Assembly: GCA_965242765.1 (NCBI GenBank)
Contig: CBDESY010000003.1
Coordinates: forward strand, 4,578-68,577
From: Dehalococcoidia bacterium
GTDB lineage: Bacteria; Chloroflexota; Dehalococcoidia; Lucifugimonadales; Lucifugimonadaceae
Length of the DNA stretch: 64,000 bases
Reading direction: 5' to 3'
The first letter of the stretch is position 1. Every line of letters begins with the position of its first letter. Of this stretch, positions 141-44,432 are shown piece after piece. The translations under genes were made by a program, and so were the position numbers. Below the pieces are notes generated by a model, which did not search any database, was not told where the DNA came from, and saw nothing but the letters and a program-made list of their open reading frames with translations.

Positions 141-545
141 TCAGCTGAGCGGTCCGCCGAATATCTTACCTAGACCGCCTGCGATGTTGCCGATCACAGA
201 AGCTATGGCACCGCCCATGACGCGCCAAATCGTCAGGAACATGACGACGAAGCCGACGCTTGCAAGTAGAGTTCGGAAAAATCCCCAACCATCCGAGAAC
301 ACATTCTCGTAGCCAGAGAACGCAAAAATGGCAAACAATCCATAGGCGATTTTGCCCATCGCTCCAAGTAGACCGAACGGATTCTGGAGTATCGTCTGAA
401 GCGATTGCATCGCTTCATTAAAGCTTTCGATCGGTCCGACATCACCCCAAGCAGCATCAGCACCAGTCGCACTAAGAGCCCACAATTCAGCTAGCGAACA
501 TGCGATGTGCAACCCGGCGAATACCAGATATAGCTTTACTGTCAC
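141..545 (-). CDS. small multi-pass membrane protein coupled to giant ORF A
   Basis: 134-aa ORF. Its GTG start overlaps the TGA stop of 542..10630 (GTGA). Several hydrophobic Gly-rich helices (GLFAIFAF, VGFVVMFLTIW, GGAIASVIGNIAGGLG). No family recognised. Confidence 0.55.
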   Translation of the reverse strand: MTVKLYLVFAGLHIACSLAELWALSATGADAAWGDVGPIESFNEAMQSLQTILQNPFGLLGAMGKIAYGLFAIFAFSGYENVFSDGWGFFRTLLASVGFVVMFLTIWRVMGGAIASVIGNIAGGLGKIFGGPLS

Positions 546-9500: not shown

Positions 9501-10630
9501 TCTGGCTTCATTCGACCAAGATGCCGGTCGTATAAATCCAACTTCTTTTTTGCAGGCTGGTCGGGGTGTGCCTGCCTGTACCACTGCATCGGGTTAGGCA
9601 AGTCATCAAGGATTGATGTTTCATCGTCGTGCCAAGGTTTGCCAGAGCCGATTCTGTTGATTTCTTTTCGCAAAACACCGCGCGTAGCCACATGTTCGGC
9701 GATGGCGGTCATCAACTGACGTTCTTCATCATCAAGGCTCCCAATCTCTCCCAACACCGATGGATCGGGGGCTATATGTACTGCGCTGTAAGTCGGGTTG
9801 TGAAGTGCTTTGCGATATTTTTTCGCCGCTGCGTCTTCAGCGTACTCGGCGGTAAACCTGTCGATTGCTTTAGCTGCAACCTCTGGGTGTCCGTGTTTCT
9901 CAAGCAACTCCCTAAAGGCATTCACCCAATCTTCTTCATGCGCTTCTTCTTGATTGTGAGCATGCCAAGCTGGTGCCAAGATATGAGCGTACTCATGCAA
10001 CACCATTGACGACAGTCGCCCGTCTTTTTCAATCAACCATTCAGGTGTAGCATCAGGACTGATAAAACAGATTTCGTTGCTACCTGTGTGAACGTGCGCG
10101 GAATGGTTGCCAGGCAACTTTGAATCTCTAGTGCAACCAAAGCTAATCGCTTCGAGTTCGGGCAGCGCGTCGAAGATTGGCTTCAGTCCGTAACGCTCTG
10201 CGCGCTCTTTCCAGATTCGGTTGTAACGCGGTGCTTGATCGCTATCAGCACTTGGCAACTCCTCAGGGAACTTGCCGTTACGTTTCCTATCTAAAGGATA
10301 GGGTTCGATAATCTGCTTACCTTCAGAGCGGCGGCGCGCATCAATCGCTTGTCGCCTGTCGTTCCACTCGCCCCAGGCTTTCCGCAAGGCAACTTTCCTG
10401 TTGGCAGCTTTCCCTACAAACTCTATCCATTCTTCGCCGTAAGGCCCCGTTTCAGCCTCTTGGTGTATCCACGCAGCAAGATCACGATAACGTTCTCTGG
10501 AATGCATCAGGCGCAGATAGTTTGCCTCGGGGTTATCACTCAACTCACCGGCTTGCGTCATAAAATCCAGCCAATCCTCGTCAGAGGTCATTGGCTGGTT
10601 GGTGTACGGATTGACGAACTGCTTGGTCAT
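542..10630 (-). CDS. giant polyvalent-type protein A (3362 aa; SprT/zincin-like plus ParB-like motifs)
   Basis: Uninterrupted 10.1-kb ORF. N-terminal 'VLHEYAHILAP...HEEDW' at nt 9977-10003. 'LQPRNRED...LDGNGRVMAF' at nt ~3300-3590. Three 16-aa Pro-rich repeats. The remainder is highly charged. ATGA overlap with the upstream ORF 10627..10992. Confidence 0.9.
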   Translation of the reverse strand: MTKQFVNPYTNQPMTSDEDWLDFMTQAGELSDNPEANYLRLMHSRERYRDLAAWIHQEAETGPYGEEWIEFVGKAANRKVALRKAWGEWNDRRQAIDARRRSEGKQIIEPYPLDRKRNGKFPEELPSADSDQAPRYNRIWKERAERYGLKPIFDALPELEAISFGCTRDSKLPGNHSAHVHTGSNEICFISPDATPEWLIEKDGRLSSMVLHEYAHILAPAWHAHNQEEAHEEDWVNAFRELLEKHGHPEVAAKAIDRFTAEYAEDAAAKKYRKALHNPTYSAVHIAPDPSVLGEIGSLDDEERQLMTAIAEHVATRGVLRKEINRIGSGKPWHDDETSILDDLPNPMQWYRQAHPDQPAKKKLDLYDRHLGRMKPEVNEAYQVITKTRKKHNLAMKTKYRKSVSDIISEYAKLKGYEGTKAEIRKRVAKDYSKLSNAVMTEGAIANSLRRIGKASGIDIDDADDLAKSVLLANRGELQRDKRLQAGLGYDWRSFLESPDTRFTQQTLDNFRRATELYHLRLTPDQIEKVGKNTAVNHRRMMEDSRSEINEISLSEIDPNIIFDPERSDAYTKSLEYLKRPTRKIPDDLANKSEEEKLAIVDSLFPSQEEYRQRAADIFAEKRKSMDLKHVQRPQTTINRFADNARKSDVLNFLVGGYDRQLVGYEMRSIAEAELFEDIKDLSSRYARQVKRLQERTHDQDLFKQRAPLDLQAMMAYYESPDPIPDLVKATHQYRLETEKHELEKAVLLGRADPKELDNLMRAQLFIRERRLLDVIDEYEVPEAEVPDNAKVLRIPNRLLPVPEKLEDYEEWKRETRSRFANYIKYRASTGFGHYYDFVEFDGRFLPYMDRQTRPDGTGRTLKDNAIVYALHSALQPHEEAQTSLPILKDVGQRNLLPDTPTATALELPTRADTPISPIKRARKITVPEHSMPYDRKIRNQVEYLLEVLPELGVDAVDIDKSNLSDSTYLTLSSWRGDDEDFETSIRISDHDQRPSYYRPQDIEIGDFGTADSKTLDDARVLEALARRYGISDVSEFVERHKGKMRKLPDEIDNSLIHRYLVQAKENPPEPTLEEIKYEIDVAEYELPRIEDADEYKRFVEDTESNIDAIKSGIAEDAEELQEVRDAIKEELDSGNVLSQESERLLEDYGYGYSPNEKFAEEIQSFPPTPIEIPDWKPKPFVPKTIRLHHGTPRRFSGAPTTKMSNHTGDRFGLGLLSLSPSEDLAHDFAVSTRDSRVYSVDVPQSEVLDLIEESRPYIENHRYRDFGAIMKQRIKEADGKYTVVAVADASGRDFHKTDYGAEYRLIKDIPEEQWTHQRSKAAVEKFREVEELERRFDAGEELTDEERSTLREKLKSELSLSDYISETMEEGGASESDIDFYEERSDKWADMIERIDASLSPGIKESVDMPTNSKNPALTASQIQFTPDEIAGFVELNRKDPIAAHKHSLELIQRKLEDVGLDLSKKDRAEMARDIGYDPIWTSAARKWDKDLKAFEREVAKRVATDEEIAKIHDLSERYRSALEQGNRRSAAGIRRPLLEAVDQLVRDSFKQNDSEIVSRDVPLAHMKTRIEVIPGKLSFEISSGDLADINENRYQWTDRVPYTKRELRERQEKTINAVGRQTREYLEKPKLSEPTYHEVLKAALARAQGDNPKAEDAISEQSHKDKPATDNQTPTDETNDVPKTYRQKLEAELERTKRQRAADNRGLQVDAAYLGHIIGLEHELEQTFDDDVDFEERMERQIKDLSENLDRVKAANLAFNRFKRKHGTQSVNRDNLTAEQVAEFGYNEDEVAQVLGSENNIYARPLQWSAKDLKAAEKRLADWREERGIKPERKDKESISTPSEDEQPAPLVMRPSNFLRQEPPPEDEQPAPTANDIEDGRSAIKTAFEAIDKYLPEDNRFRFGRVRDPETWKIPANARAIEEKIYMHPQGQLDAHAEAINEQLRIARRARKAVKDALSRPTQPEPSNQTDVPSSPSGDVPIVQIDSSDFNDVDPTPDLEFNDVLVSMNEVLDAWETLQASNAKHIRFEGDVRDRAWTEEALKNRFESARPQGDFDSLEEHLERRRKDLQTIDEESGARFVKRLQERLDSIEQKRKWMRFDKDTVTDLVGTSKWIREAKTLPIEAWTLPSYKNNRWIHSRLGARWGDLRKGTQDEVERLVVRLREQATEIDAVKQDLLDEIFLEAEPVLDGTHKSEFNAKAKAEGRPYVDDDGALVVPTGDGNQIRLSKSELSALRSNERYESRKEGRTAKQRKQVNAIFKSLDNIVDRLGNLTATKPSAPPDLEIDVSYLTKQQQRDVQKQIEIQERQKAREDDKPVELSDEGVTEGAISGAKRKRYGVGSTTFDTRYYIIDASQVIQSHMPRSGDPNPQYAHSESLQPRNREDTVAWVYGTALDLQPLPLLDSRGLGGGPPIIDSRGMVLDGNGRVMAFKLAETIPGRMEAYREALREEAELMGFSEEDIERAMQLENPMLVSRVLNKADIPEIVRQGNQPRTATLTTQEQSQQDAAMFTPEIIEQLASLNEVSSEDKGDKTFDDILKRSDNQETLQELVGLMTSGNTSGFFDSTGSISDAGRTRIKKAALTYALGNSPSADRVLKPWFNQDTSSDIGQIKRGVERGLLDLVKLRNAISKGELEPEYDIADDLMRVLETYPESRKFRDRKAKFPYEIDQFFISRGFGPLTVSALTDRQRALFRKLHAINRSPVTIAQLLGKYVQHASGNAVSQDAIPMWDMNQFTEVNSPEDALVAAERDLTKTGRTKESFLKDALEDKRLTGLSSGDFVNKESALGQLAGGSHEVPPYEGDKIDPDFATPPQAPPPTPVPAPPPKVVVEEPEPELKPPPPKVVVEKPEPELKPPPPKVVVEEPEPELKPPPLKRTDDSQTVDVDDSTRYFIDVMSDAAKKTAELGLAVPSERYIEKLAKSAVAYNRRTDFDKHLEAKPWLSLSTAPELSEVVYRPRYAEEHDELPDIEEYRGWARRRANLANLRGMTMADPDALDRLAALAEEIRRRHNRPYRESREAWMQDVPMTPQSLAQLEEAIRQSDKTWALEAKAVSKPKPSAPVAKPQEQFESLQPKPPRDSEPFRNSKPFRQLIDLYRQEDELMRRIARHQDSMDHRFKAGNQIGDDSVRRAEDRHNELIDQSLSVQQRIADVRLSLEEEGDIDVLIGNLEGLNEYDENRFNDYNLDEWEEKLIVRNMKRREQEIEWLRGLPEARETRKKELRDALVEVDDAIDTLKGSGPQAGLFAMELDVEVDDQSDDERSVAELEAEYDRKVREYAALKAETQIRGKHEAEAVEKAERQLEARLKEMNKMPVPRLDKPKRRGGGGGRRGGGGDMLTGFLPKGVTMEQAGYGKRRGTR
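2003..2146 (-). repeat. 3 x 48-bp in-frame tandem repeat (PPPKVVVEEPEPELKP)
   Basis: Units start at 2003, 2051 and 2099. Each differs from the others at about 2 nt. Confidence 0.9.
3300..3590 (-). other. ParB/sulfiredoxin-like domain inside giant A
   Basis: 'YYIIDASQVIQSH...YAHSESLQPRNRED...GGPPIIDSRGMVLDGNGRVMAF'. This matches the recalled lQpRdR ... sGNGRt signature of ParB-like domains in phage/plasmid polyvalent proteins. Confidence 0.55.
9880..10110 (-). other. SprT/zincin-like metallopeptidase motif region inside giant A
   Basis: HExxH 'HEYAH' followed by 'AHNQEEAHEEDW'. The same signature occurs in the stand-alone ORF 45947..46387 ('LHEYAHIIAPNEYHHHGLLW'). Confidence 0.5.
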
Positions 10631-10992
10631 TCAACTACACACTGAGGATCGCCCATCGTCGCTACGGGTGCGAGAACTTCAACCGCGCACTTTGCGGCCG
10701 GTGCGTCGTGACGGATTTCCAGCAAATCGAACCAAGCGGAATCAATCAACGTCTGATAGTAATCGACATCGACTAGTTCATCGATTCTGTCTTGCCTGTC
10801 CCATATCTCATAAGGCGATTCAAGCGGCTTGGGTGCGAAGTCTTTAATCGCTCCGAGAGTCGTCTGAACCACAACAAAAGCGTTATTCAGTTCGTCTGCA
10901 TCGTCCGTTTCTTCAATGGCCTTGCCTAGACTGGCTTCGGCAGCCTTCAGATAAACGTATATGTCCTCGAATAGTCGATCAAGCTTCGTCAT
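10627..10992 (-). CDS. acidic hypothetical protein
   Basis: 121-aa ORF. Its stop overlaps the start of giant A (ATGA). No motif recognised. Confidence 0.55.
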   Translation of the reverse strand: MTKLDRLFEDIYVYLKAAEASLGKAIEETDDADELNNAFVVVQTTLGAIKDFAPKPLESPYEIWDRQDRIDELVDVDYYQTLIDSAWFDLLEIRHDAPAAKCAVEVLAPVATMGDPQCVVE

Positions 10993-11185
10993 CAGATTCC
11001 TTCTTTTTCGTTGCCTGAACCGGCATTACATTCCAAAACACTTCACCATCGTCATCAACGACGATCAGAGGTGCATAAACATTCCCATGCCCAGCATCGA
11101 ATCGGTCACGCGCCAATTCACTCAAACGCGTAAGCAACGCGTCTGTGCCTTCGTGGTTGCTGGTGTCTTCAGGTTCGATGTTCAT
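10979..11185 (-). CDS. small acidic hypothetical protein
   Basis: 68-aa ORF lying in the operon chain, with a short overlap with each neighbour. Confidence 0.45.
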   Translation of the reverse strand: MNIEPEDTSNHEGTDALLTRLSELARDRFDAGHGNVYAPLIVVDDDGEVFWNVMPVQATKKKESDDEA

Positions 11186-11400
11186 ATCACGGGCAGTCCA
11201 TCAGGTTCGTTTCTGTAGGCTGGGTCGTAACCCAGTATCTCGATACACATGTCGTAACAACTCGGACATAGCAGAATCCAGTTTTCACGACCGGGATAGT
11301 TCAACTTGCGACGCTCTTCAGCGTTGGCGGGTATCATCTCGCTAACTTCATTGTTGCATGTAGCGTTCCTGCAGATTTCCACGTTCATTACAACCGACAC
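11182..11400 (-). CDS. small Cys-rich (zinc-ribbon-like) protein
   Basis: 72 aa with 'CRNATC ... CPSC' cysteine pairs. ATGA-type overlap with the downstream ORF. Confidence 0.5.
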   Translation of the reverse strand: MSVVMNVEICRNATCNNEVSEMIPANAEERRKLNYPGRENWILLCPSCYDMCIEILGYDPAYRNEPDGLPVI

Positions 11401-11418
11401 TGTTCGATCTCCTTGCGT

Positions 11419-12375
11419 CTAGGTTTGCATGCTACGCAACCGCTCGAAGCGTTGCATCATATCAGGGTCTTGACTAAGGTCTACGAAATCGCTGTCATCG
11501 TCTTTTTGCTTGCGGCGACCGCCACGAACTGGCGCGCCAATGTGTTCACGAAGATCGTCGGACGTTGCACGAAGCCGAGCCGCAAAGTCTAGTTCGGCAA
11601 GTGTGTCGTAGCACATCGACGCTTCAAAAACATCTTTGTATGCCGGTCGGAAAGCGCGGCATCTTGGCATCGGGGTTACCCAGCGTTGACGCATATGCAA
11701 GTGATCGGGCGGCTCTGTAAAAGTCAACGGGTTGCCGACCATCTCCCAAACCAACAACTTGCAGAAATCATACTTGCCCGGAACTCGCACATAGTTGTCA
11801 CGCTTACCCCATCGCGGCTTGCCGCGCTTGCGGGGGACTTTGCGATATGTCGATTTCCTCGGATACCAAGCGCGCGTCACGTTGGGACGTAAAGCCGCGA
11901 AAACCTGCATGTCAGTTTGGGCGGTGAATACGATATGGATTCCATTCTTGCGAAGTGCGGCAAGCGACTCAGTCATAAACACGGCCGATGTTGATGTTGA
12001 CGAATACTTGCTGACATAACTTTGAAGCTCATCGAGGAAAACGATTGTGTTTTTGTAGTTCTTGGCAAGAGTGTAGAGGTCGTTGAGGTCTACTTCTTCA
12101 CCAAACTTCAATCCCGACGCGGATCCGTAGGCTACTCGCACACCGCGTTCGTAAAGACCTTTGAGCCATGAAACCGCCATCAATGTCTTGCCAGAACCCA
12201 TCGCGCCGAAAATCCCAGTAACCCCACTACCCGGATGTGGCTTGCGCGCATTGGAATCAATCGCCTTTCGGTGACGTTCCTTCACCAACGCAATCATCCG
12301 CTCTTCGTCGGCTTTCTTATGAACTGAGCCACCCGTTGATTCGGCAGTTGCGCCGCCGCCGAAGTTGCTAACCAT
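11419..12375 (-). CDS. P-loop NTPase, Zot/pI-like (assembly/packaging-type ATPase)
   Basis: Walker A 'GIFGAMGSGKT', Walker B 'IVFLDELQ', then 'GIHIVFTAQ'. This pattern resembles Zot-family ATPases (FLFIDEC ... DICLTTQ as recalled). Confidence 0.7.
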   Translation of the reverse strand: MVSNFGGGATAESTGGSVHKKADEERMIALVKERHRKAIDSNARKPHPGSGVTGIFGAMGSGKTLMAVSWLKGLYERGVRVAYGSASGLKFGEEVDLNDLYTLAKNYKNTIVFLDELQSYVSKYSSTSTSAVFMTESLAALRKNGIHIVFTAQTDMQVFAALRPNVTRAWYPRKSTYRKVPRKRGKPRWGKRDNYVRVPGKYDFCKLLVWEMVGNPLTFTEPPDHLHMRQRWVTPMPRCRAFRPAYKDVFEASMCYDTLAELDFAARLRATSDDLREHIGAPVRGGRRKQKDDDSDFVDLSQDPDMMQRFERLRSMQT

Positions 12376-12600
12376 AATGAACCTCGTGGATCGTCAATCG
12401 CACATGCTTAAACAATAGCACGTGACGGAGCAACTTGAAGCTTGCGCCGGCCCGCGCATACCGACGCAAGTTGCATCTTTGCTTTTTCCATCCCTTGCAG
12501 CGCGGTTATTCAGCGTCACACTCCGCAACGCTACAAAATGTTGATGCGCGCCACCAATTCCGAATTTTCGTCAAGTACGCATGAAACAGTCGCGGTTCAC

Positions 12601-14577
12601 TCATGCCACACCTCCAACATCACACCGCAGCTCAAGCGTAGTATCGTTGCCGAAGATGTCGATTACCTTGACTACGATATGCTTTTCGCCTGGATCCGCA
12701 TACTCATGCGGATCTGAACGCAGATTCAACGTCCGATCTCGCCGGGTGCGATACGATTGCCACTGATTGACAAACACCTCGCCGTCATACTCGAAATCTA
12801 CGGACCAGTAATCGATCCAATCCGACCACTCAGTCGGCGTGTTGGTCAGCTTCTGACGCATATATTCATCGACCGCGGGAATGAAGCTTGTCAGCTCAAC
12901 CTGTGCTGCCATGTGATACGGCGTTTCGACAGAAGCTTCGGCTACTGACAGCTCGAAGAAGTTGATGCCGCCGGCATCGATGTTGCGCTGATCGAGAATC
13001 TCGCGAGGGATGTTCCGCAGAGTGATTGCCACTCCCGTTGAATGCCGCAACTCATCGCGCAATGCCGGATTCAAGCCCATCTCCCACTCCCAACCTAGAA
13101 CATCCACCGACTTGAAGCCGTTATCGACGCACTCCTGCACGACGGCGCGCAGCTCATCAGCCGATACTGGTGCATCGGTAGCTCCGACATGTACCGCCGC
13201 GCCTTCACGGATACCATGCACGTAAGTAAACTGATCGGGCATCGGACGCGCCTTGTAGAGATTCAAGATGAAGTCGATGTAATTAGACATCGCCTCGACA
13301 CCCGACCAGTATTGACGTTCGTATCGTCCCAGGTTCTGCACCTCAAACGGACGGCATCCCTCGATATCCAACAACCGCTTACGCGTAGTCTGAATAGCAA
13401 AACGTCCGATATCCACTCCAATCCAGCGTCGCCCCAACTTTTCCGCAACCGCGGCGGTAGTTCCAGAGCCTACGAAGCAATCTAGAACGAGGTTGCCTTC
13501 GTTGGACGATGCTTTGATGATGCGCTCTAACAGGGCCTCGGGTTTTTGAGTGGGGTAGCCGAGATACTCGTTGGATCGAGTAGCGGTCTGAAACGAACTT
13601 ATATCCGTCCAAACATCACCAATCGGAATACCAGATTCATCGGCATAATATCTTCTATTTGCTCTCTGGCGGTATCGACGCCCATCAGCGTCTTGGCCTT
13701 TGAACATCTTTCGTACATATTCCTCTGAATACGGCTCGTACTGTGTATTAAATAGGTACTCCGATGACTGGGTAAAGTAAAAGATTGTGTCATGGTCTCT
13801 AACCCAATTTGCGGTACGACTTTTGAATCCCGAGCGAGATTTCATTTGCCAAATGATTTCGCGCTTGAAATTCAACGAGTTACGTGCCTCCAAGGCCATC
13901 CGAATGTGATGGTTGGCGGTGGCATCACAATGCACGTATAGCGCTCCCTTGTCGCTTAGCAAACAACCAAGGAGCGAAGCCACACTTGCGAACCAGGGCG
14001 TGTATGAATCCTGCCGTTCGCCCCACATATCTCGGTAAGCAACTTCCTCCAAAATACTTGGAAGTTTCTCCACGCTAGCATCCCCCACCTGCGTCTTATA
14101 CGAAAAATCCGCCCCTGTGGCAAAGGGCGGATCGATGTAGATGAGGTCTATTTTGCCGGCGAACTCTTCTAGAAGAGATGAGAGTACGAGTTTGTTGTCG
14201 CCCCAGATCAGCCGGTTACGCCAGCCGGGAGTCCACCAATCCGGGAGATCAACACGGCCGGTGTCTACGTCGAACTGATATGTATTAGTACGCCCGCGCG
14301 AACCGTTTCCTGCTCTCTCTCTCTCTCTCTCTCTCTCAGAAACGCGCCGCGTCGTTCTCGCGTGCGCGCGAGAACGCTCCTGTTCTGTGGCTACTAATTG
14401 AGCCTGATCGGCCCGCGAGCGTCGGACATCATTGACGCGCTCGATTGTCTGGAATGGCAACGATATGCGTTCGATAGGTTTATTCTTGCCTGGCCAGACT
14501 AGTTCTACGCGTTCGTAGTCGTGTGTGGGAGAGCAGTCTGGGCATGGCATTTTCGTCTTTGGTCCCTTGTTGATCAT
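12601..14577 (-). CDS. DNA methyltransferase, beta-class N6A/N4C (Type III Mod-like)
   Basis: 658 aa with 'ELVWPGK', 'LIWGDN', motif IV 'IDLIYIDPPFATGADF' and motif I 'LDCFVGSGTTAAVAEKLGRRWIGVD'. The order IV->I is as in the N6_N4 MTase family. Confidence 0.85.
   Translation of the reverse strand: MINKGPKTKMPCPDCSPTHDYERVELVWPGKNKPIERISLPFQTIERVNDVRRSRADQAQLVATEQERSRAHARTTRRVSERERERERAGNGSRGRTNTYQFDVDTGRVDLPDWWTPGWRNRLIWGDNKLVLSSLLEEFAGKIDLIYIDPPFATGADFSYKTQVGDASVEKLPSILEEVAYRDMWGERQDSYTPWFASVASLLGCLLSDKGALYVHCDATANHHIRMALEARNSLNFKREIIWQMKSRSGFKSRTANWVRDHDTIFYFTQSSEYLFNTQYEPYSEEYVRKMFKGQDADGRRYRQRANRRYYADESGIPIGDVWTDISSFQTATRSNEYLGYPTQKPEALLERIIKASSNEGNLVLDCFVGSGTTAAVAEKLGRRWIGVDIGRFAIQTTRKRLLDIEGCRPFEVQNLGRYERQYWSGVEAMSNYIDFILNLYKARPMPDQFTYVHGIREGAAVHVGATDAPVSADELRAVVQECVDNGFKSVDVLGWEWEMGLNPALRDELRHSTGVAITLRNIPREILDQRNIDAGGINFFELSVAEASVETPYHMAAQVELTSFIPAVDEYMRQKLTNTPTEWSDWIDYWSVDFEYDGEVFVNQWQSYRTRRDRTLNLRSDPHEYADPGEKHIVVKVIDIFGNDTTLELRCDVGGVA
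14313..14336 (-). repeat. (CT)12 / (AG)12 dinucleotide microsatellite inside the methyltransferase CDS
   Basis: Twelve uninterrupted CT units read directly from the sequence. They encode 'ERERERER' near the N-terminus of 12601..14577. Confidence 0.95.
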
Positions 14578-14587
14578 CGACTTCTCC

Positions 14588-15070
14588 TCATGTAGTCAAC
14601 ATGAACTCATTCAGTTCGCGGCGAGCTTGTTCGCGCTGTTTGTATTCGAACTCACGCTTAAAACATTCAGCAGCAAGTTCGTTCCAAATTTTCAAAAGAT
14701 ACTCAGCGTCATCGGTTGGATGACAGAACGCGCAGTAGCCCTCTTTGATGGCTCCTCTCCTGCAACGCGTCAAACGTTTATGATGCGGCTTGCGCTTTAC
14801 TTTGGACTTGCACTGAGGTGGGTCGTAGTAAAGACTGAACTCTACGCCTTCTTTGAAGTATGTGCCTGGGTTGCAGATATTGACAAAAGGTTTTGGCATC
14901 CCCCCTCCCCGAAACTCATTCGGAATAATCGCAACCTTGAAACGCTTTGTATCGTCCCATAGGTAGTGTTGATCGCAAACAAGGCACTTGAATATCGACT
15001 TTCCCCAGTTGACACATTCTTGCTTCGATGCGGCGGCGCGGCAATCTAGATTAGGGCATCTAAAAGTCAT
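14588..15070 (-). CDS. Cys-rich zinc-ribbon protein
   Basis: 160 aa with 'CPNLDC ... CLVC' and further Cys/His pairs. 1-nt stop/start coupling with the upstream ORF (TGATG). Confidence 0.55.
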   Translation of the reverse strand: MTFRCPNLDCRAAASKQECVNWGKSIFKCLVCDQHYLWDDTKRFKVAIIPNEFRGGGMPKPFVNICNPGTYFKEGVEFSLYYDPPQCKSKVKRKPHHKRLTRCRRGAIKEGYCAFCHPTDDAEYLLKIWNELAAECFKREFEYKQREQARRELNEFMLTT

Positions 15071-15255
15071 CAGTTCTCCTCAAGCAGTTGGCGCGCAACC
15101 AGTCGTACTATGCATTCTTCGCAACACCAGGTCTTTGGCGGAGCGCAAGGTTCGTCCCAACCAACCTCGGAACTCGGCGGTAGTGGCTCTTGGTAGTGCG
15201 TCGTGTAATCAGCAAACACGTTGTTCAACTCGGATAGTTGTATCTGACTTCTCAT
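15070..15255 (-). CDS. small hypothetical protein
   Basis: 61 aa, coupled on both sides (ATGA and TGATG overlaps). Contains a 'WCCEEC' cluster. Confidence 0.4.
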   Translation of the reverse strand: MRSQIQLSELNNVFADYTTHYQEPLPPSSEVGWDEPCAPPKTWCCEECIVRLVARQLLEEN

Positions 15256-15689
15256 ACCTTGTTCGCAAATCTACCGCCAACTCGCCTGCTTCTGGAGGCC
15301 TTAAAGGCCGCAAGTTGCATGCCGCAGTTGCGGTCGCATGTCTTACGACTTTTGAAGTTGCTCATCGGTTCGTCTTCACGCCGCACCAACGTAGAGCCGC
15401 ACCAATGGCAATCTCGTTCCTCTGGATCACCAGCAGATCGGTAACACGTGATACCACAGTACTTCCGTTTTTTAAACCCCGACTGATGCTCATAAGATTT
15501 CTGCTTCAGCACCTTGCCGCATTTGAAACAGGTGCCGTCTGGATTGCGTTCGTATTTTTCATCCAGAATCGTCAGCTTAGATTTGTATTCGTGGTTAACG
15601 CCGAACGACCGACTGCATTGCATGCACTTGAACAAAAATTGTTCATCCCGCAAGCGTCGCACAAATCCTGAGCATCTAGGGCAAATCAT
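15252..15689 (-). CDS. multi-zinc-finger protein
   Basis: 145 aa with 'CPRC...CMQC', 'CFKC', 'KYCGITC' and 'KTCDRNC' (FCS/YacG-like spacing). ATGA overlap with the methyltransferase 15686..16927. Confidence 0.55.
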   Translation of the reverse strand: MICPRCSGFVRRLRDEQFLFKCMQCSRSFGVNHEYKSKLTILDEKYERNPDGTCFKCGKVLKQKSYEHQSGFKKRKYCGITCYRSAGDPEERDCHWCGSTLVRREDEPMSNFKSRKTCDRNCGMQLAAFKASRSRRVGGRFANKV

Positions 15690-16927
15690 TGCATCACCAT
15701 CGGGTATGGAACTTGGGTTATTCGCTCGGCTGCGATCTCAAGATAGTCGGCATTGAGGTCACATCCTACGCCGCGCCGCGCCAGCGATTGAGCGACGGCG
15801 ACTGTGGTGCCGCTGCCGACGAAGGGGTCCAGCACAGTCGCCGGCACCACATCAGCATCGCAGTCGCACGACGGCGACCAGCCGAGTAACTCAACACGTT
15901 TCTCTCTTCGCACAGACAAACTGATAGACTCGTGTCCCCGCTCTACGCTTTTAGGTCCGTTAGTCCTGCGATTGCCCGGGTTCACGTAAGAGACGCTCAC
16001 GTCCCGCACCCATTGCGACCCGCAGTTAGAGCAGACGCCCTTCGCGCTAGTTCCCGCCAATATGCAACGGCGCGGCAATTCGTCGGGGAAAGTTGCAAAG
16101 TGGGCATCCGAACGACCTTGCAGCGGGATAACCCACACATTGTGGGCGTTGGCACCGCGCGCAAGGTGTTCTGGCGTATGTGCGTGGTGTTCAGCGCGTA
16201 TGCCATTGATTTGACGATTCGGGTAGCGTTTTCTCTGATGCGACAAGCCGACTTTTGTATGAACATCATCACCAGCGCGCGCACCGTCTTTGAACCCAGC
16301 AATTGCATCCCAACTCGCTCCGGGGTCATTTTGATAAACTAGTTTCGTCCGTATGGCATCGCCATCGTAGAAATATTTGCCGCTCTTCACAAACAGGAAA
16401 ATCAACTCGTATGCGGTTGTCGGTCTATCTCGAATCGATTCAGGCATCGGATTAGGCTTGTGCCAAAATATCGCTGAGCGGAGTATCCAACCATCATCCT
16501 GAAGCGCAAACGCAATCCGCCATGGCATTCCCATCAAGTTTTTAGGGCGTAGACCCAACCCACCAGAACCCGCTTTTCGTGCCATCCCATTCAGATCGCC
16601 CGGCACGTCACCAGACATCCTCACGCGTCCACTGCCGCTAGAGTAAGCGTCCCCGTAATTCAACCAAAACACACCATCATCGCGCAGTACGCGCCAAATC
16701 TCGCTCCCGACTGCAACCATGTTGTCCACATGCTCTAGAAACGACGCTTCGTCGCCGATTCCGTTTTCTATCCCATAATCCCGCAGCCCCCAGTACGGCG
16801 GCGATGTCACAACGCAATGCACAGACTCGTCCTCTAAAGGCAAGCAACGCGCGTCGGTGTGATGCAGACTGCTAAACCCGTTGTCAAATACCTTACTCAT
16901 CGACAATTTCAATGACTCTGCTACCAT
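15686..16927 (-). CDS. DNA methyltransferase, beta-class (SPPY; possibly N4-cytosine)
   Basis: 413 aa with motif IV 'HCVVTSPPYWGLRDYG' and motif I 'LDPFVGSGTTVAVAQSLARRGVGCDL'. An alternative start lies at 16900. Confidence 0.85.
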   Translation of the reverse strand: MVAESLKLSMSKVFDNGFSSLHHTDARCLPLEDESVHCVVTSPPYWGLRDYGIENGIGDEASFLEHVDNMVAVGSEIWRVLRDDGVFWLNYGDAYSSGSGRVRMSGDVPGDLNGMARKAGSGGLGLRPKNLMGMPWRIAFALQDDGWILRSAIFWHKPNPMPESIRDRPTTAYELIFLFVKSGKYFYDGDAIRTKLVYQNDPGASWDAIAGFKDGARAGDDVHTKVGLSHQRKRYPNRQINGIRAEHHAHTPEHLARGANAHNVWVIPLQGRSDAHFATFPDELPRRCILAGTSAKGVCSNCGSQWVRDVSVSYVNPGNRRTNGPKSVERGHESISLSVRREKRVELLGWSPSCDCDADVVPATVLDPFVGSGTTVAVAQSLARRGVGCDLNADYLEIAAERITQVPYPMVMQ

Positions 16928-17126
16928 CCAACACGATTACCGCAGGTTTCATGCCCTTTGACTCGCAATCCGGCTCATGCAACAACGGACGATACTCGGA
17001 CCTGGACGGAGTACATGTGCAGCCACTTTTTCTACCCCAGTCCGGGCAATCATCACGATGCCCCCCCACCAACTCTTCATCGCAGTAGCAACATATCTCT
17101 TTGAGCAATTTCGCCGGTCTATCCAT
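16893..17126 (-). CDS. small Cys-rich protein
   Basis: 77 aa with 'CCYCDEE...HRDDCPDWGRKSGCTC...CES'. Confidence 0.45.
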   Translation of the reverse strand: MDRPAKLLKEICCYCDEELVGGHRDDCPDWGRKSGCTCTPSRSEYRPLLHEPDCESKGMKPAVIVLDGSRVIEIVDE

Positions 17127-17337
17127 GAATCAACTCCCCATGTTCAGGACCCAGTCTGTGTCTGCAATAGTCGCCCGAAGTCGCACAGTCGCAACCGCAG
17201 TTTTCGTTGATTTTGTTGCATGAACAATTTCTCGAACATTCCAAGTGTGCGCTGTATCGATGCCCGAAGCCGCGCTTGATCATCACGCCGTCTGTGTCAC
17301 TCGTAAGGGTCATACACCACCACATTTTCGCCGGCAC
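17119..17337 (-). CDS. small Cys-rich protein
   Basis: 72 aa with many Cys ('CSRNCSCNKINENCGCDC'). The start is uncertain because internal Met codons exist. Confidence 0.45.
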   Translation of the reverse strand: MPAKMWWCMTLTSDTDGVMIKRGFGHRYSAHLECSRNCSCNKINENCGCDCATSGDYCRHRLGPEHGELIHG

Positions 17338-17575
17338 ATTTTCTCATTTCATCCGCGTGGATTTCACAAATCACTGTTTCATCGTCGTAGCGATGGTCAC
17401 ATAAGTAGCCGCAGCAGGCGGTACCATCACATTCACCATGCTTCTCGATGTAGTTGACCTCGCAGAGTTTCCAAACTTGATAATGCGCGTCGCAAAACAG
17501 AACCCATTCGTCCACTCCTTGATAGCCGCCGGTGATTATCTTGCATTGGTGCGGGTGCCTCGTATCTATGCTCAT
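17297..17575 (-). CDS. small Cys-rich protein ('CDxHY' family)
   Basis: 92 aa containing 'LFCDAHYQVWKLC'. Similar motifs occur in 47637..47903 ('VPCDKHYDL') and 17823..18101. Confidence 0.5.
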   Translation of the reverse strand: MSIDTRHPHQCKIITGGYQGVDEWVLFCDAHYQVWKLCEVNYIEKHGECDGTACCGYLCDHRYDDETVICEIHADEMRKCAGENVVVYDPYE

Positions 17576-23298: not shown

Positions 23299-23302
23299 CC
23301 AA

Positions 23303-28105: not shown

Positions 28106-28109
28106 CGTG

Positions 28110-28439
28110 TCACCTGCGCGGTCGTCCATGACTGTCGTACCCCGGCCAGTCGGTGCGCGCTTGTTCTCTATTCATCGATAGACGATTGGCGCGCGTGTTG
28201 GTAGACACCCGGCGCGGCTTTTTCCGCGCGGGTCGTTTACGCACCAAACCATCCATAATCTCTCGGACTTGAAACGTCGTTGCGATGATGCAGACGATGG
28301 CGATGGCATAAAGCAGATACTCGAAAAGCCACGCAACCTCGCCATACGCTTCAAAGCGTTCATTGGTGCCTACCCATGAACCAAATACCGCGCAAAGCGC
28401 GGCACTTGCTCCCAAAGCGAATATGCCAAGTATCTGCAT
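28110..28439 (-). CDS. small 2-TM membrane protein with basic tail, coupled to giant ORF B
   Basis: 109 aa. Its start overlaps the stop of 28439..37804 by 1 nt. Two hydrophobic helices are followed by 'RKRPARKKPRR'. Confidence 0.55.
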   Translation of the reverse strand: MQILGIFALGASAALCAVFGSWVGTNERFEAYGEVAWLFEYLLYAIAIVCIIATTFQVREIMDGLVRKRPARKKPRRVSTNTRANRLSMNREQARTDWPGYDSHGRPRR

Positions 28440-37804: not shown

Positions 37805-38142
37805 GGCGCATTCTCCATCAAGTAATCGTTATGAGTTGATGTTGAATCTAACAGACTATCTGAAAATGGCGATGCCATAAACGTCAACAAGCAGGACGTA
37901 GAGCATGTTCAAATCATGTCGCGCGCGCGCGCGAATGTGATGCGTGTGTGCGGATGTGCGAATCCGCACCCGCGCCCAGTACGTGTCGGTATCGCGCACA
38001 AAACAAAAATATGCTAAAATCAAGGTGTGGATCCCAAGCGTCAGGGTCCCAATCAACTCGCGCAGACGGAGCTTGCTCTGTCTGCGCCAATCTTTGCGGT
38101 CGGGTATAATATATTACACACCGAGTTGATTGGAGTAGCACC
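37805..38142. promoter_or_regulatory. divergent intergenic control region
   Basis: 338-bp gap between divergently transcribed giant B and 38143..38982. Contains TATAAT at 38105-38110, TGCTAAAAT at ~38011-38019 and a (CG)6 / alternating Pu-Py tract at ~37921-37965. Confidence 0.4.
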
Positions 38143-41060: not shown

Positions 41061-41310
41061 TATCAGACGTGGAGCCGCCTGAAAGTAACCCCGTTCGTTG
41101 CCACAGACGGAACCAGCAAGCGGCTTTCTTCAGTTTAGCACCTCGAAAGTGCATAGATATGCATACGAACACCATCAATCCAGCAACATGATTCTGGATA
41201 TTTTGCTCTCTGAATCCCTGGCGGTCTAACCCGCGAGTAAATCGCCGTATGTTACACTCTCAAACAGCACCGAGTTGATTGGGATACAACCATGCAGCAA
41301 AAGACGCAAC
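41061..41310. promoter_or_regulatory. divergent intergenic control region with 13-codon uORF (41292..41330)
   Basis: Gap between 39726..41060 (-) and the Replicase gene. The motif GCACCGAGTTGATTGG (41267-41282) lies 9 nt before an ATG. That ATG opens a mini-ORF 'MQQKTQHAFTNH' which overlaps the in-frame Replicase ATG at 41311. Confidence 0.4.
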
Positions 41311-42498
41311 ATGCCTTCACGAATCACTGAACGACACGTGAAGCGGTTCAACGAAGCCATCCCCGACGAACTCAAAGTGCTGGGCTACTCGGACGGGCCG
41401 GTTGCACCACGCGCAACCAACGACCTCGAAGCTGGAACCACGCACTTACCGCCGTCATGGGCTTTCAAGCGCATCTTCATAGAAATGTCCGCCGAGAACT
41501 GCTTCAATGGGATCTACCAAGACATCGATGAAGCCGATGCGGAGATGATTATCGATGAAGCAATCGAAGAACGTTTAGTAGTCCCCCCAAGTTACGTAAC
41601 GATCAACGATGCGACGGGGCATGCACAAGTCGGATGGTTCTTGAAAACACCAGTTCACAACAACCCCGGTCAATCTTCGTTCAAGGCACTCAACTTCTTC
41701 CATGCCATCGACGCTTACTACTCCCAAGTTCTGCGCGCAGACTCGGCTTTCAGTGGACGGATAATGCGTAATCCAGTACATCCACTCGCAAAGACCGAGT
41801 TTGGCTCCAAAGCCGACGGCTTCACATTAAGCGAACTGGCAAGCGTGATGCCGCCGTACACCAATCAGCTGCGTTTGATCAGGCAACGTGGCAAAAGCAC
41901 CTACGGAAAACGATACAACTCGAACCGACTACGCATCGAAGCTCAAAGCGTATCCTTTGGAATGCGGAATGAGTGGATAGCCAATGGCGCGGGACGCGGT
42001 TGGCGCAAGTACACCAACCACGGCGGAATCATGTACGTATGTGATGAGATAGAATCCGAGATAGTAGACCTCAATCAATGCTTGCCTTCACCAATGAAAG
42101 ATACTGAGGTCGCCTGTATCATTCGCAGTTTAGAGAAACAACGCATGACTTCCGGGTTTGCAGTTCAAGAACGTCGCCGACGGGCAGCCGACAGCGGACG
42201 TAAAAGCGGCATGGTGCGACGGGAACGCACCAAAGAGCGTGATCAAGCGATTGTCAGGGACTTTGGCACCACCGAGCGCGAGCAAAGTGCGCTAGGTCGC
42301 AAATACGGACTTTCACGCAAGGCGATACATCACATCCTGCGGCGCGATGGGGCTCTACTGTCGCCTAAAGAACGCGATGCCCAAATCGTAGACCTGTTTC
42401 TAAACAACAAAAACATCACCGATATCGCAACTCGGCTTCGGACATCCCGTCCAACTGTGTATCGGTGCCTTCAACGCAACGGATTGCATGGTGTATGA
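41311..42498 (+). CDS. plasmid-type replication initiator (ColE2/pAL5000 'Replicase' family, AEP-like) with C-terminal HTH
   Basis: 'YQDIDEADA' (DxD), 'VPPSYVTINDATGHAQVGWFLKTPV', 'YYSQVLRADSAFSGRIMRNPVHP' and 'GFTLSELASVM' match the recalled Replicase family signature. C-terminal 'ITDIATRLRTSRPTVYRCLQRNG'. The track's TTG start is at 41275. Confidence 0.7.
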   Translation: MPSRITERHVKRFNEAIPDELKVLGYSDGPVAPRATNDLEAGTTHLPPSWAFKRIFIEMSAENCFNGIYQDIDEADAEMIIDEAIEERLVVPPSYVTINDATGHAQVGWFLKTPVHNNPGQSSFKALNFFHAIDAYYSQVLRADSAFSGRIMRNPVHPLAKTEFGSKADGFTLSELASVMPPYTNQLRLIRQRGKSTYGKRYNSNRLRIEAQSVSFGMRNEWIANGAGRGWRKYTNHGGIMYVCDEIESEIVDLNQCLPSPMKDTEVACIIRSLEKQRMTSGFAVQERRRRAADSGRKSGMVRRERTKERDQAIVRDFGTTEREQSALGRKYGLSRKAIHHILRRDGALLSPKERDAQIVDLFLNNKNITDIATRLRTSRPTVYRCLQRNGLHGV

Positions 42499-44030: not shown

Positions 44031-44432
44031 GATTTTAGCCGATTTTAGCCGATTCTGAGGTATCCAAGGGGTATCGGCTAGAACGCCTGAAATCCGTCGA
44101 TTCTGGGCGATTCTAGGGTATCCAAGGGGTATCGGCTAGAACGCCTGAAATCCGTCGATTCTAGGGGATTCTAGGGTATCCAAGGGGTATCGGCTAGAAC
44201 GCCTGAAATCCGTCGATTCTGGGGGATTCTAGGGTATCCAAGGGGTATCGGCTAGAACGCCTGAAATCCGTCGATTCTAGGGGATTCTAGGGTATCCAAG
44301 GGGTATCGGCTAGAACGCCTGAAATCCGTCGATTCTAGGGGATTCTAGGGTATCCAAGGGGTATCGGCTAGAACGCCTGAAATCCGTCGATTCTAGGGGA
44401 TTCTAGGGGATCCAGTGGGTATCGGTTGAACC
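44031..44432. repeat. 58-bp tandem direct repeat, 6 near-perfect copies plus 1 degenerate copy (iteron-like)
   Basis: 'tatccaagggg' recurs at 44061, 44119, 44177, 44235, 44293 and 44351 (period 58), with a degenerate copy at 44409. The array is preceded by gattttagcc x2. It is flanked by ATGTTATAT at 43991-43999 and 44477-44485. Confidence 0.95.

What the first reader, a model, noticed from the sequence alone, without database searches (positions are those of the whole stretch)
14313..14336. (AG)12 microsatellite inside a Mod-like methyltransferase gene, a candidate phase-variable 'phasevarion' switch on a mobile element
Twelve uninterrupted CT/AG dinucleotides lie about 80 codons into 12601..14577, encoding 'ERERERER'. 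The segment falls between the conserved 'ELVWPGK...FQTIE' N-terminus and the catalytic core.

Gain or loss of one unit would frameshift the gene. Simple-sequence repeats in the 5' part of Type III mod genes are the established mechanism of phase-variable methylation in Haemophilus, Neisseria and Helicobacter.

On a virus- or plasmid-like element this would randomise the element's own methylation pattern, or the host epigenome.
Basis: partly seen in the sequence, partly recalled or inferred. Interest (0 to 1): 0.65.

Follow-up and report, generated by a model that had tools for sequence, protein, structure and literature searches.

The report
Slippery repeat in captured methylase gene
A run of twelve AG pairs sits inside a DNA-methylase gene that a 69-kb plasmid-like element of a sponge-dwelling Dehalococcoidia bacterium copied from its host's Type III restriction system; relatives carry the same kind of repeat at many lengths, mostly out of frame, so it is very probably a known type of random on/off switch in a new setting.

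Summary
(CT)12.5 lies at 14313-14337 and is read as (AG)12 = ERERERER, residues 81-88 of ORF 12601..14577(-). It is the only long simple repeat in the window; about 4e-10 are expected by chance.

- **The gene.** It is a beta-class N6_N4 methyltransferase. Its relatives in Dehalococcoidia chromosomes are the mod genes of mod-res (Type III) operons.
- **The setting.** The window has no res. It keeps only the first 11 codons of res (MSEPRLFHAYL), identical to the start of an intact 871-aa Res on a 2.64-Mb contig. That contig also carries a mod copy differing by one residue. The window comes from a 68.7-kb contig with a plasmid-type Rep, an iteron-like array and five methyltransferase genes. It therefore captured its host's mod without res.
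- **The switch.** Orthologues carry (AG)6, 12, 14, 20 or 23, C12, C22, or G9, G10 or G15 at the same linker. Eleven of the 13 assembled tracts scored there are out of frame. The 39 codons upstream are still under strong purifying selection (dN/dS <= 0.12). The chromosomal copy appears to have a longer tract than the element's in-frame one.

Switching in this element was not seen directly, and a regulon (phasevarion) role is untested. Verdict: a new member of a known kind, of moderate interest.

The parts
14313..14337 (-). (AG)12 / (CT)12.5 simple-sequence repeat. It encodes ERERERER (residues 81-88) and is in frame (ON) at this length.
12601..14577 (-). Type III-family mod gene, a beta-class N6_N4 DNA methyltransferase of 658 aa. 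The ancestral start is ATG 14550 (MPCPDCS...). On the element the ORF is extended by 9 codons to ATG 14577.
   Evidence: Pfam PF01555, E 4e-44. Homologues start at MPCPDCS. phmmer hit to EcoP15I Mod 4zcf_A, E 8e-8.
14354..14375 (-). Palindrome GTTCTCGCG-CGCA-CGCGAGAAC, a 9-10-bp GC-rich hairpin 16 nt 5' of the tract. It is conserved in every relative that carries the (AG)n, C22 or G10 tract in this clade, and absent from the repeat-less L001.
   Evidence: (hairpin in the MFE fold of the 106-nt region; whole-region z -3.7).
14575..14589 (-). Element-supplied ribosome-binding site GAGGAG plus ATG 14577.
14551..14555 (.). Upstream breakpoint of the captured segment. Run contigs carrying another (chromosomal) context diverge from the window here, just 5' of ATG 14550.
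12572..12604 (-). Remnant of res. ATG overlaps the mod stop (ATGA). Its 11 codons MSEPRLFHAYL are identical to the start of the intact chromosomal Res P0133. The reading frame then runs into unrelated sequence and stops at 12506.
   Evidence: The shared unitig ends at 12576.
15686..16927 (-). Second solitary N6_N4 methyltransferase in the same minus-strand gene string.
41275..42498 (+). Replicase-family (PF03090) protein with an HTH domain; about 25% identical to plasmid replication initiators.
44040..44425 (.). 58-bp unit x 6.7, 96% identical: an iteron-like array between the Rep region and an MT-A70 methyltransferase gene.

Best explanation
The (AG)12 tract is a slippage-prone repeat of the kind that switches Type III mod genes on and off by frameshift.

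**Shown**
- The gene is a near-exact copy (1 residue differs in the 490 compared) of the mod gene of a chromosomal mod-res operon of a sponge-associated Dehalococcoidia bacterium.
- A 68.7-kb plasmid-like element acquired the segment from just upstream of the mod start codon to about 30 nt into res. This left it with a solitary Mod and a new ribosome-binding site.
- Across the clade, the same linker carries repeats of different kinds and lengths. These are mostly out of frame, while both halves of the gene stay intact.

**Inferred**
- In the host chromosome the tract switches Mod ON and OFF. Type III Res needs Mod, so the whole restriction system switches with it.
- On the element the in-frame copy methylates the host's Type III sites whatever the phase of the chromosomal copy. 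The element is therefore not cut when it meets cells whose system is ON.
- The tract came along with the gene and can still slip. The element's self-protection is therefore itself stochastic, with selection keeping the ON length in the elements that persist.
For: **Repeat and frame.**

**Family.**
- PF01555 with DPPF before FxGxG.
- In L001-L006, L008, L010, L011, L014, L082, L090 and L093 the orthologue is followed directly by an ORF of about 870 aa. Where scanned, this ORF carries ResIII, and in two loci RE_endonuc as well.

**Capture.**
- No res-like sequence occurs anywhere in the window (tblastn, best E about 1).
- The sequence after the mod stop encodes MSEPRLFHAYL, identical to the start of Res P0133 (871 aa). 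P0133 is on the 2,640,046-bp contig that also holds P0001, a mod copy differing only at A212S.
- In independent runs, 12576-14550 forms its own unitig at depth about 14, against 5 and 2.9 for the element flanks. Other contigs continue from both ends into non-window sequence.

**Element.** 68,657-bp contig; Replicase+HTH, a DnaA_N-like protein, a 58-bp x 6.7 array and five methyltransferases; no phage hallmark proteins.

**Hypermutability of the site.**
- Out-of-frame tracts: L002 (AG)14, L003 (AG)12, L081 (AG)23 and (AG)12 in two tandem paralogues, L090 (AG)20, L091 (GA)12, L092 (GA)6, L082 C22, L093 G10, L012 G9, L013 G15.
- In-frame tracts: the window and L006 C12.
- Nine of 26 mono/dinucleotide repeats in 15 loci fall in the 460-nt 5' region of mod, which is 2.3% of the sequence (p 5e-9).
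- A run contig spans the L002 site with a 10-nt gap. If that gap lies in the tract it gives (AG)9, which would be in frame.
- In runs X3 and X4, where the element's flank has no depth, contigs break at the tract with 3-4 further unaligned letters on both sides (at least 29 nt of tract). Run X1 bridges it at 25 nt.
- P0001 is called from the same internal GTG (VEKLPS) that follows the shifted tract in L003.

**Not decay.** The 39 codons upstream of the tract have dN/dS <= 0.12 with saturated dS, including among OFF alleles. The core ORFs of OFF alleles are full length.

[quoted passage not shown] The published criterion is at least 5 dinucleotide units, and GA[n] is known in Mycoplasma mod genes (PMC5909438). 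Mod alone methylates, Res needs Mod, and solitary methyltransferases on mobile elements are proposed antidotes (PMC4176335).
Against: - No raw reads were available. Length heterogeneity within one population of this element was not measured.
- The longer chromosomal tract is inferred from where k=31 contigs break and from a truncated gene call, not read directly.
- Pure-repeat k-mers are swamped by the animal host's own microsatellites.
- Some OFF states in long-read MAG assemblies could be consensus errors at repeats.
- Eleven of 13 alleles OFF is close to the 2/3 expected if lengths drift neutrally. ON may therefore be rarely needed.
- The element's host is inferred from sequence identity and co-occurrence only.
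- The target motif, the methylation and the protection are all untested.
- About 4.6 kb of the 68.7-kb contig lies outside the window and could in principle hold a res.
Confidence: 0.65

Rival explanations
1. Passive hitch-hiker. The repeat evolved as the switch of the chromosomal mod-res operon and was merely carried over. On the element it has no selected switching role, and the copy is a recent, possibly transient, acquisition that will be fixed ON, shortened or lost.
For: - The copy differs from the chromosomal gene by one residue, so it is very recent.
- The element already has four other solitary methyltransferases.
- Its tract is shorter than most relatives' (12 against 14-23 units) and apparently shorter than the chromosomal one.
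Against: This differs from the best explanation only in whether switching on the element matters. A 12-unit dinucleotide tract is far above the length at which slippage is frequent (PMC5909438), so the copy will vary whether or not that is selected.
Confidence: 0.2
2. Phasevarion. Random ON/OFF of this Mod changes genome-wide adenine methylation and thereby the expression of a set of host or element genes, giving phenotypically mixed symbiont populations.
For: - The mechanism is established for SSR-bearing Type III mod genes (PMC5909438).
- ON and OFF alleles coexist among relatives.
- The mod region is present in sponge metatranscriptome contigs.
Against: - There are no expression or methylome data.
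- The res partners of the relatives checked, and of the host, are intact and full length. This fits a working, phase-variable restriction system rather than a Mod kept only for regulation.
- RNA libraries may contain DNA.
Confidence: 0.15
3. Stable low-complexity linker. The tract simply encodes a tolerated (Glu-Arg)n spacer, and the frameshifts in relatives are assembly or consensus errors.
For: - The linker varies freely in length (about 48 to 154 residues) and in sequence among homologues.
- Long-read consensus can mis-size repeats.
Against: - Differences are large, not +/-1 unit: 6, 12, 14, 20 and 23 units.
- L081 carries 23 and 12 units in two paralogues with near-identical flanks. L091 and L092 have 12 and 6 units with identical flanks in short-read-style (scaffold) assemblies.
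- Different repeat types (AG, C, G) occupy the same spot.
- Gene callers in several independent assemblies produced N-truncated proteins.
Confidence: 0.05

Closest known systems
Phase-variable Type III mod genes (modA/modB/modH etc. of Haemophilus, Neisseria, Helicobacter, Moraxella; GA[n]-bearing mod genes of Mycoplasma), surveyed in Atack et al. 2018, PMC5909438
   Same: - A simple-sequence repeat lies inside the 5' part of a beta-class Mod ORF.
- The unit length is not a multiple of three.
- Tract length differs between strains, giving in-frame and out-of-frame alleles.
- The coding sequence is otherwise intact.
   Different: - The host is an uncultured Chloroflexota (Dehalococcoidia) sponge associate.
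- This copy has no res and sits on a plasmid-like element.
- The repeat type is interchangeable (AG, C or G) at one site next to a conserved palindrome.
- Neither switching rate nor regulon has been measured.
Solitary (orphan) methyltransferases carried by plasmids and phages as antidotes to host restriction (Oliveira et al. 2014, PMC4176335)
   Same: A methyltransferase without a cognate nuclease on a mobile element that carries several such genes. The expected effect is self-protection.
   Different: - The donor system is identifiable. The gene is a one-residue-different copy of the host's own Type III mod and still carries the first 11 codons of res. That survey concluded that most solitary genes do not derive from recent degradation of complete systems.
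- The captured gene carries a mutational switch.
EcoP1I / EcoP15I, the classical Type III systems of prophage-plasmid P1 and plasmid p15B (from general knowledge; EcoP15I Mod structure 4ZCF)
   Same: Type III Mod family on an extrachromosomal replicon. The N-terminal LxWxGK motif is followed by GDN...DPPY/F, then FxGxG. A sequence match to 4zcf_A was found.
   Different: Those elements carry complete mod-res operons and no repeat tract. The match to EcoP15I Mod is weak (E 8e-8, over residues 121-277 only).

Membership tests
Type III restriction-modification, Mod subunit | N6_N4 methyltransferase domain in beta-class order (motif IV DPPY/F before motif I FxGxG) | tested here: met
   PF01555 over residues 143-398, E 4e-44. 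DPPF lies at 14122-14133, upstream in the gene of FVGSGTT at 13459-13476.
Type III restriction-modification, Mod subunit | Sequence similarity to experimentally characterised Mod proteins | tested here: met
   phmmer against the PDB: EcoP15I Mod 4zcf_A E 8e-8, and 6k0w_B 'Mod' E 4e-6. Stronger hits go to the catalytic core of MboIIA and RsrI.
Type III restriction-modification, Mod subunit | Adjacent, co-oriented res gene (ResIII helicase plus endonuclease domain) | tested here: not met
   No res is found in the 64-kb window (tblastn); only an 11-codon remnant at 12604..12572. The feature is met in most of the relatives examined (L009 and L013 show no such ORF) and in the near-identical chromosomal copy's genome. 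The gene is therefore a solitary derivative of a Type III mod, not a complete system.
Type III restriction-modification, Mod subunit | Methylates one strand of a short asymmetric site | not testable with these tools
   Needs methylome data or expression of the cloned gene.
SSR-mediated phase-variable methyltransferase (phasevarion) | Repeat tract within the ORF of sufficient length (at least 5 dinucleotide units) and a unit not divisible by 3 | tested here: met
   12 units of 2 nt. The criterion is taken from PMC5909438.
SSR-mediated phase-variable methyltransferase (phasevarion) | Tract-length polymorphism giving both ON and OFF alleles among close relatives, with otherwise intact ORFs | tested here: met
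   Of the 13 assembled tracts scored, 2 are ON and 11 OFF; a further in-frame case is known only as a protein (P0002) and one (L011) is probably OFF. The element and chromosomal copies differ in tract length by inference. Upstream dN/dS <= 0.12.
SSR-mediated phase-variable methyltransferase (phasevarion) | Reversible, high-frequency length change within one population | tested here: inconclusive
   Only Logan contigs were available. They break at the tract, and host microsatellite k-mers interfere.
SSR-mediated phase-variable methyltransferase (phasevarion) | ON/OFF state changes the methylome and the expression of a regulon | not testable with these tools
   No methylome or matched expression data.
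Mobile-element solitary methyltransferase used against host restriction | Located on an extrachromosomal or mobile replicon | tested here: met
   68,657-bp contig separate from the 2.64-Mb chromosome contig. Replicase+HTH, an iteron-like array and distant plasmid Rep hits. Circularity was not tested.
Mobile-element solitary methyltransferase used against host restriction | Same specificity as a restriction system of the host | tested here: met
   One residue (A212S) differs from the chromosomal Mod over 490 aa. The chromosome encodes an intact Res. Identity of the recognition site is inferred from sequence identity.
Mobile-element solitary methyltransferase used against host restriction | Protects the element from cleavage | not testable with these tools
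   Needs a restriction/transfer assay.

The most novel reading that the evidence does not exclude
The element does more than hide from restriction: it takes over control of its host's phase-variable Type III system. An ON copy of the host's own mod, under the element's own translation signals, would supply Mod in trans to the intact chromosomal Res whenever the chromosomal mod has slipped OFF. Restriction would then be restored against competing phages and plasmids, while the element itself stays methylated.

In addition, the conserved palindrome plus an interchangeable repeat (AG, C or G) would be a portable mutational-switch module. It would sit in the mod linker and be maintained across a whole clade of sponge-associated Dehalococcoidia.
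Probability: 0.12. Interest if true: 0.75.

Novelty: new member of a known kind. Interest (0 to 1): 0.5.

Why it matters
Repeat-driven switching of methyltransferases has been studied almost entirely in small-genome pathogens. This case extends it in three ways.

- **A new ecological setting.** The same device recurs across a clade of uncultured Dehalococcoidia living in marine sponges. Restriction systems are unusually abundant there and viral pressure is thought to be high.
- **A dated capture event.** A mobile element lifted the modification half of its host's restriction system, and the scar of the nuclease gene is still visible.
- **A testable host-element interaction.** When a host turns its restriction system on and off at random, resident elements are left unmethylated part of the time. 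Carrying their own copy of the methylase would remove that risk.

The clade also offers many natural ON and OFF alleles. With long-read kinetics data, methylation state could be linked to tract length read by read.

Tried and rejected
**Searches that returned nothing**
- Exact-protein look-ups for P0001, P0133, P0009 and the window's own protein. The chromosomal copy's tract could therefore not be read directly.
- Pattern scans for the tract with its flanks in JGI metagenome contigs and in IMG/VR, and for the palindrome+(AG)n module in JGI metagenome contigs only.
- IMG/VR relatives of the mod protein are only 33-40% identical and carry no 5' tract.

**Read-level evidence that fell short**
- All runs holding the locus are stored only as k=31 contigs.
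- Pure-repeat words reach depths of 10^4-10^5 from the animal host's microsatellites. Contig breaks are therefore only indirect evidence.
- The 31-nt contigs over the tract were discounted as likely foreign.
- The L003 site gave a consistent 5-nt gap in four runs that I could not interpret.

**Readings rejected**
- A phage origin: no capsid, portal or terminase hits; only a protease-like and a Zot-like ATPase match.
- Pseudogene decay of OFF alleles: rejected because of dN/dS and the intact cores.
- Misassembly of mod into the contig: rejected because both junctions are present as k-mer overlaps in independent runs.

**Left open**
- The pairing of the tract flanks (CGTTTC/GAAACG) seen in the DNA fold was not convincingly conserved in relatives and was not pursued.
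Full report
**1.

Tandem Repeats Finder reports a perfect period-2 array of 12.5 copies at 14313-14337. The + strand reads TG(CT)12C-AGAA. On the minus strand it is read as S-ERERERER-A, residues 81-88 of the 658-aa ORF 12601..14577. Apart from (CG)7 at 37920 and (CG)5 at 62028, no other dinucleotide run in the window exceeds four units. A first-order Markov model expects about 4e-10 such tracts in 64 kb. The tract is in frame as it stands, and any change of one or two units would shift the frame.

**2. What the gene is**

The protein has a Pfam N6_N4_Mtase domain (PF01555, residues 143-398, E 4e-44). DPPF precedes FVGSGTT, which is the beta-class order typical of Mod subunits. Against solved structures it matches the catalytic cores of MboIIA and RsrI and, more weakly, the Mod subunit of EcoP15I (4zcf_A, E 8e-8).

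Family membership is clearest from context:
- The closest homologues (50-65% identity) are in Dehalococcoidia and other Chloroflexota MAGs.
- In L001-L006, L008, L010, L011, L014, L082, L090 and L093 the orthologue is followed immediately, on the same strand, by an ORF of about 870 aa. The four of these that I scanned against Pfam have a ResIII helicase domain, and two of them a C-terminal restriction-endonuclease domain. L009 and L013 show no such ORF.

The family is therefore the mod gene of canonical Type III mod-res operons. The homologues start at MPCPDCS, which corresponds to ATG 14550 in the window. The tract lies in a linker between the conserved N-terminus (ELVWPGK...LPFQTIERVNDVRRS) and the GDN/DPPF core. 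That linker ranges from about 48 to 154 residues among relatives.

**3. This copy has no res, and was captured from the host chromosome**

No res-like sequence exists anywhere in the window (tblastn with three Res proteins, best E about 1). Immediately after the mod stop, in the ATGA overlap typical of the operon, the window reads ATGAGTGAACCGCGACTGTTTCATGCGTACTTG = MSEPRLFHAYL. It then runs into unrelated sequence with a stop after 33 codons.

Two database results identify the donor:
- The protein database holds a 490-aa product (P0001) on a 2,640,046-bp NCBI contig. It differs from the window protein only at A212S, apart from its start codon.
- The window's own 658-aa product is on a separate 68,657-bp contig.

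A search with a relative's Res found an intact 871-aa Res (P0133) on that same 2.64-Mb contig. It begins MSEPRLFHAYLCPPNNQ..., so its first 11 residues equal the window's remnant.

Independent sequencing runs agree:
- In runs X1 and X2, window 12576-14550 forms its own unitig at depth 13-14.
- The element flanks (4000-12605 and 14521-17504) have depths of about 5 and 2.9.
- Other contigs continue from both ends of the shared segment into non-window sequence. One is a 10.5-kb contig in X4, which shows no depth on the element's flanks.
- All runs carry the A212S variant (13944 C>A).

The element therefore acquired a 2.0-kb piece running from just 5' of the mod start codon to about 30 nt into res. 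It supplies a new Shine-Dalgarno sequence (GAGGAG) and an in-frame ATG nine codons upstream. The res scar fixes the direction of transfer: from operon to element.

**4. What the element is**

The window has the following features:
- a Replicase-family protein with an HTH domain (41275-42498), about 25% identical to small-plasmid replication initiators;
- a protein with a DnaA_N-like domain;
- a 58-bp x 6.7 iteron-like array at 44040-44425;
- five DNA methyltransferase genes: 12601-14577, 15686-16927, 44526-45077 (MT-A70), 46420-47607 and 58756-59889;
- four giant ORFs of 1608-3362 aa, one with a ddrB-ParB domain and two rich in fibronectin type III repeats.

No capsid, portal or terminase was detected. 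I read it as a plasmid-like extrachromosomal element of a sponge-associated Dehalococcoidia bacterium. The runs that hold it are labelled sponge metagenome or metatranscriptome, or coded organisms. The host assignment rests on the near-identical mod segment and on co-occurrence.

**5. Is the tract a switch?**

I could not count lengths in raw reads, because every run is stored as k=31 contigs. The comparative evidence is nevertheless strong.

*Tract lengths and frames in relatives.* At the same linker position relatives carry the following tracts:

| Locus | Tract |
|---|---|
| L002 | (AG)14 |
| L003 | (AG)12 |
| L081 | (AG)23 and (AG)12, in two tandem paralogues with near-identical 5' regions |
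| L090 | (AG)20 |
| L091 and L092 | (GA)12 and (GA)6, with identical flanks |
| L082 | C22 |
| L093 | G10 |
| L012 and L013 | G9 and G15 |

L006 has C12 directly after its start codon, and L011 has C9 there. Translating across each tract shows the N-terminal segment and the core in different frames in all of these, except L006 (in frame) and L011 (probably out of frame; its start codon is uncertain and it is not counted). With the window, that is two ON and eleven OFF among the 13 tracts scored.

*Truncated gene calls.* This explains why about half of the 40 closest database proteins are N-truncated gene calls. Several begin just before a poly-proline stretch encoded by a poly-C tract.

*Enrichment.* Nine of the 26 mono/dinucleotide repeats in 15 loci fall within the 460-nt 5' region of mod, which is 2.3% of the sequence (binomial p 5e-9). 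With stricter thresholds the only one elsewhere is in the second mod of L081.

*Not decay.* The OFF alleles are not decaying. Their cores are full length. The 39 codons upstream of the tract have dN/dS <= 0.12 with saturated synonymous divergence.

*Differences within lineages.*
- A contig in run X16 spans the L002 site with a 10-nt gap. If the gap lies in the tract it gives (AG)9, which frame arithmetic puts ON, against the assembled OFF (AG)14.
- At the window's own locus, X3 and X4 show no depth on the element's flank, so their contigs come from the chromosomal copy. Those contigs break at the tract with 3-4 further letters that do not match the flanks. This implies at least 29 nt of tract.
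- X1, which contains the element, bridges the tract at exactly 25 nt.
- P0001 is called from the internal GTG (VEKLPS) that follows the known-OFF tract in L003.

Together these indicate that the chromosomal copy has a longer, probably out-of-frame tract, while the element's copy is ON.

**6. Mechanism and function**

Slipped-strand changes in repeats inside Type III mod genes are an established on/off mechanism. [quoted passage not shown] They set five units as the threshold for dinucleotides and noted GA[n] tracts in Mycoplasma mod genes (PMC5909438). Mod alone methylates, whereas restriction needs both subunits. Solitary methyltransferases on mobile elements are thought to act as antidotes (PMC4176335).

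My reading is as follows, and all three steps are inferred:
- In the chromosome the tract makes the whole restriction system phase-variable.
- The element's res-less ON copy keeps the element methylated at the host's sites whatever the chromosomal phase.
- The element thereby avoids being cut on transfer to, or on switching of, ON cells.

Because the tract was inherited, the element's protection can itself be lost and regained by slippage. Whether methylation also regulates genes (a phasevarion) is open. Because the partner res genes are intact, I favour a defence-related role.

A more speculative consequence is that the element's Mod could partner the chromosomal Res in trans and override an OFF host.

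**7. A conserved palindrome**

Sixteen nucleotides 5' of the tract lies GTTCTCGCG-CGCA-CGCGAGAAC (14354-14375). This hairpin appears in the minimum-free-energy DNA fold of the 106-nt region, which as a whole folds better than every one of 200 shuffles (z -3.7). The same palindrome precedes the tract in L002, L003, both L081 copies, L082 and L090-L093, whichever repeat type follows. It is absent from the repeat-less L001. It shows no covariation, so sequence and structure constraints cannot be separated. It may promote slippage, bind a factor, or be a REP-like insertion. This is unexplained.

**8. Novelty and verdict**

The mechanism is known, and so is the idea of mobile elements carrying solitary methyltransferases. 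Three things are new:
- the taxon and habitat; a full-text search found no paper linking sponge symbionts with phase-variable restriction;
- the recurrence of interchangeable repeats at one linker site across a clade;
- a clean example of a mobile element capturing the switchable mod of its host, with the res scar preserved.

I classify the finding as a new member of a known kind, of moderate interest.

Noticed in passing
window 14354-14375 (minus strand); also L002 ~10166, L003 ~10169, L081 ~3796 and ~6079, L082 ~3979, L090-L093: A GC-rich palindrome (TTCTCGCG-N3-5-CGCGAGAA) sits 8-25 nt 5' of the repeat in every tract-bearing relative of this subclade, whichever repeat type (AG, C, G) follows. 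It is absent from the repeat-less orthologue L001. Its function is unknown.
   Followed up: partly
window 44040-44425: A 58-bp unit is repeated 6.7 times at 96% identity, with an internal GATTCTAGGG sub-repeat. It lies between small ORFs and an MT-A70 methyltransferase gene, about 1.5 kb from the Replicase-family gene. It is probably an iteron-type origin.
   Followed up: no
window 12601-14577, 15686-16927, 44526-45077, 46420-47607, 58756-59889: Five DNA methyltransferase genes (three N6_N4, one MT-A70, one matching only PHROG methyltransferase families) occur in 64 kb with no restriction gene detected. This is an unusually heavy anti-restriction load.
   Followed up: partly
window 542-10630, 18442-23328, 23303-28129, 28439-37804 (all minus strand): Four giant ORFs (3362, 1628, 1608 and 3121 aa) take up about 45% of the window. 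One has a ddrB-ParB domain, two are paralogous fibronectin-III-rich proteins, and the largest-but-one has no Pfam match. Several contain in-frame tandem repeats (2003-2152, 29070-29416, 37443-37502).
   Followed up: partly
window 37920-37933: (CG)7 lies in the divergent intergenic region between the start of the 3121-aa ORF and the ORF at 38143. It has Z-DNA-forming potential.
   Followed up: no
L081 3630-5758 and 5913-7864: Two tandem mod paralogues lie upstream of one res. Their 5' regions are near-identical, but they carry (AG)23 and (AG)12. Both are out of frame, and the second has a further frameshift.
   Followed up: partly
L012 ~1880-1920 and L013 ~10125-10171: In Tepidiformaceae orthologues the linker carries a different module: an AT-rich stretch (TTTTTTTCGT.CTGATACTAAACATAAC) followed by G9 or G15. 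Both are out of frame.
   Followed up: partly
L091 ~1100-1330, L092 ~1270-1320 (and protein P0003): The mod linker also contains copies of a REP-like palindromic unit (CGTCATTCC...GGGAATC). This suggests the linker is a hot spot for the insertion of small repeats.
   Followed up: no
L018 9517-9534, 11177-11194, 17472-17485; L038 17142-17161; L041 5324-5344: Long homopolymers (C18, G18 inside the mod homologue, C14, C20, C21) lie near mod homologues in Vicinamibacterales and Phototrophicaceae MAGs. These may be further contingency loci or assembly artefacts.
   Followed up: no
L002 10002 and 10485-10514, runs X14-X16: Depth rises at the mod start (23.5 to 58.8 in X15), and there are unitig junctions at both ends of a 0.5-kb 5' segment. 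The mod 5' region may exist in more than one genomic context or haplotype in that host too.
   Followed up: no
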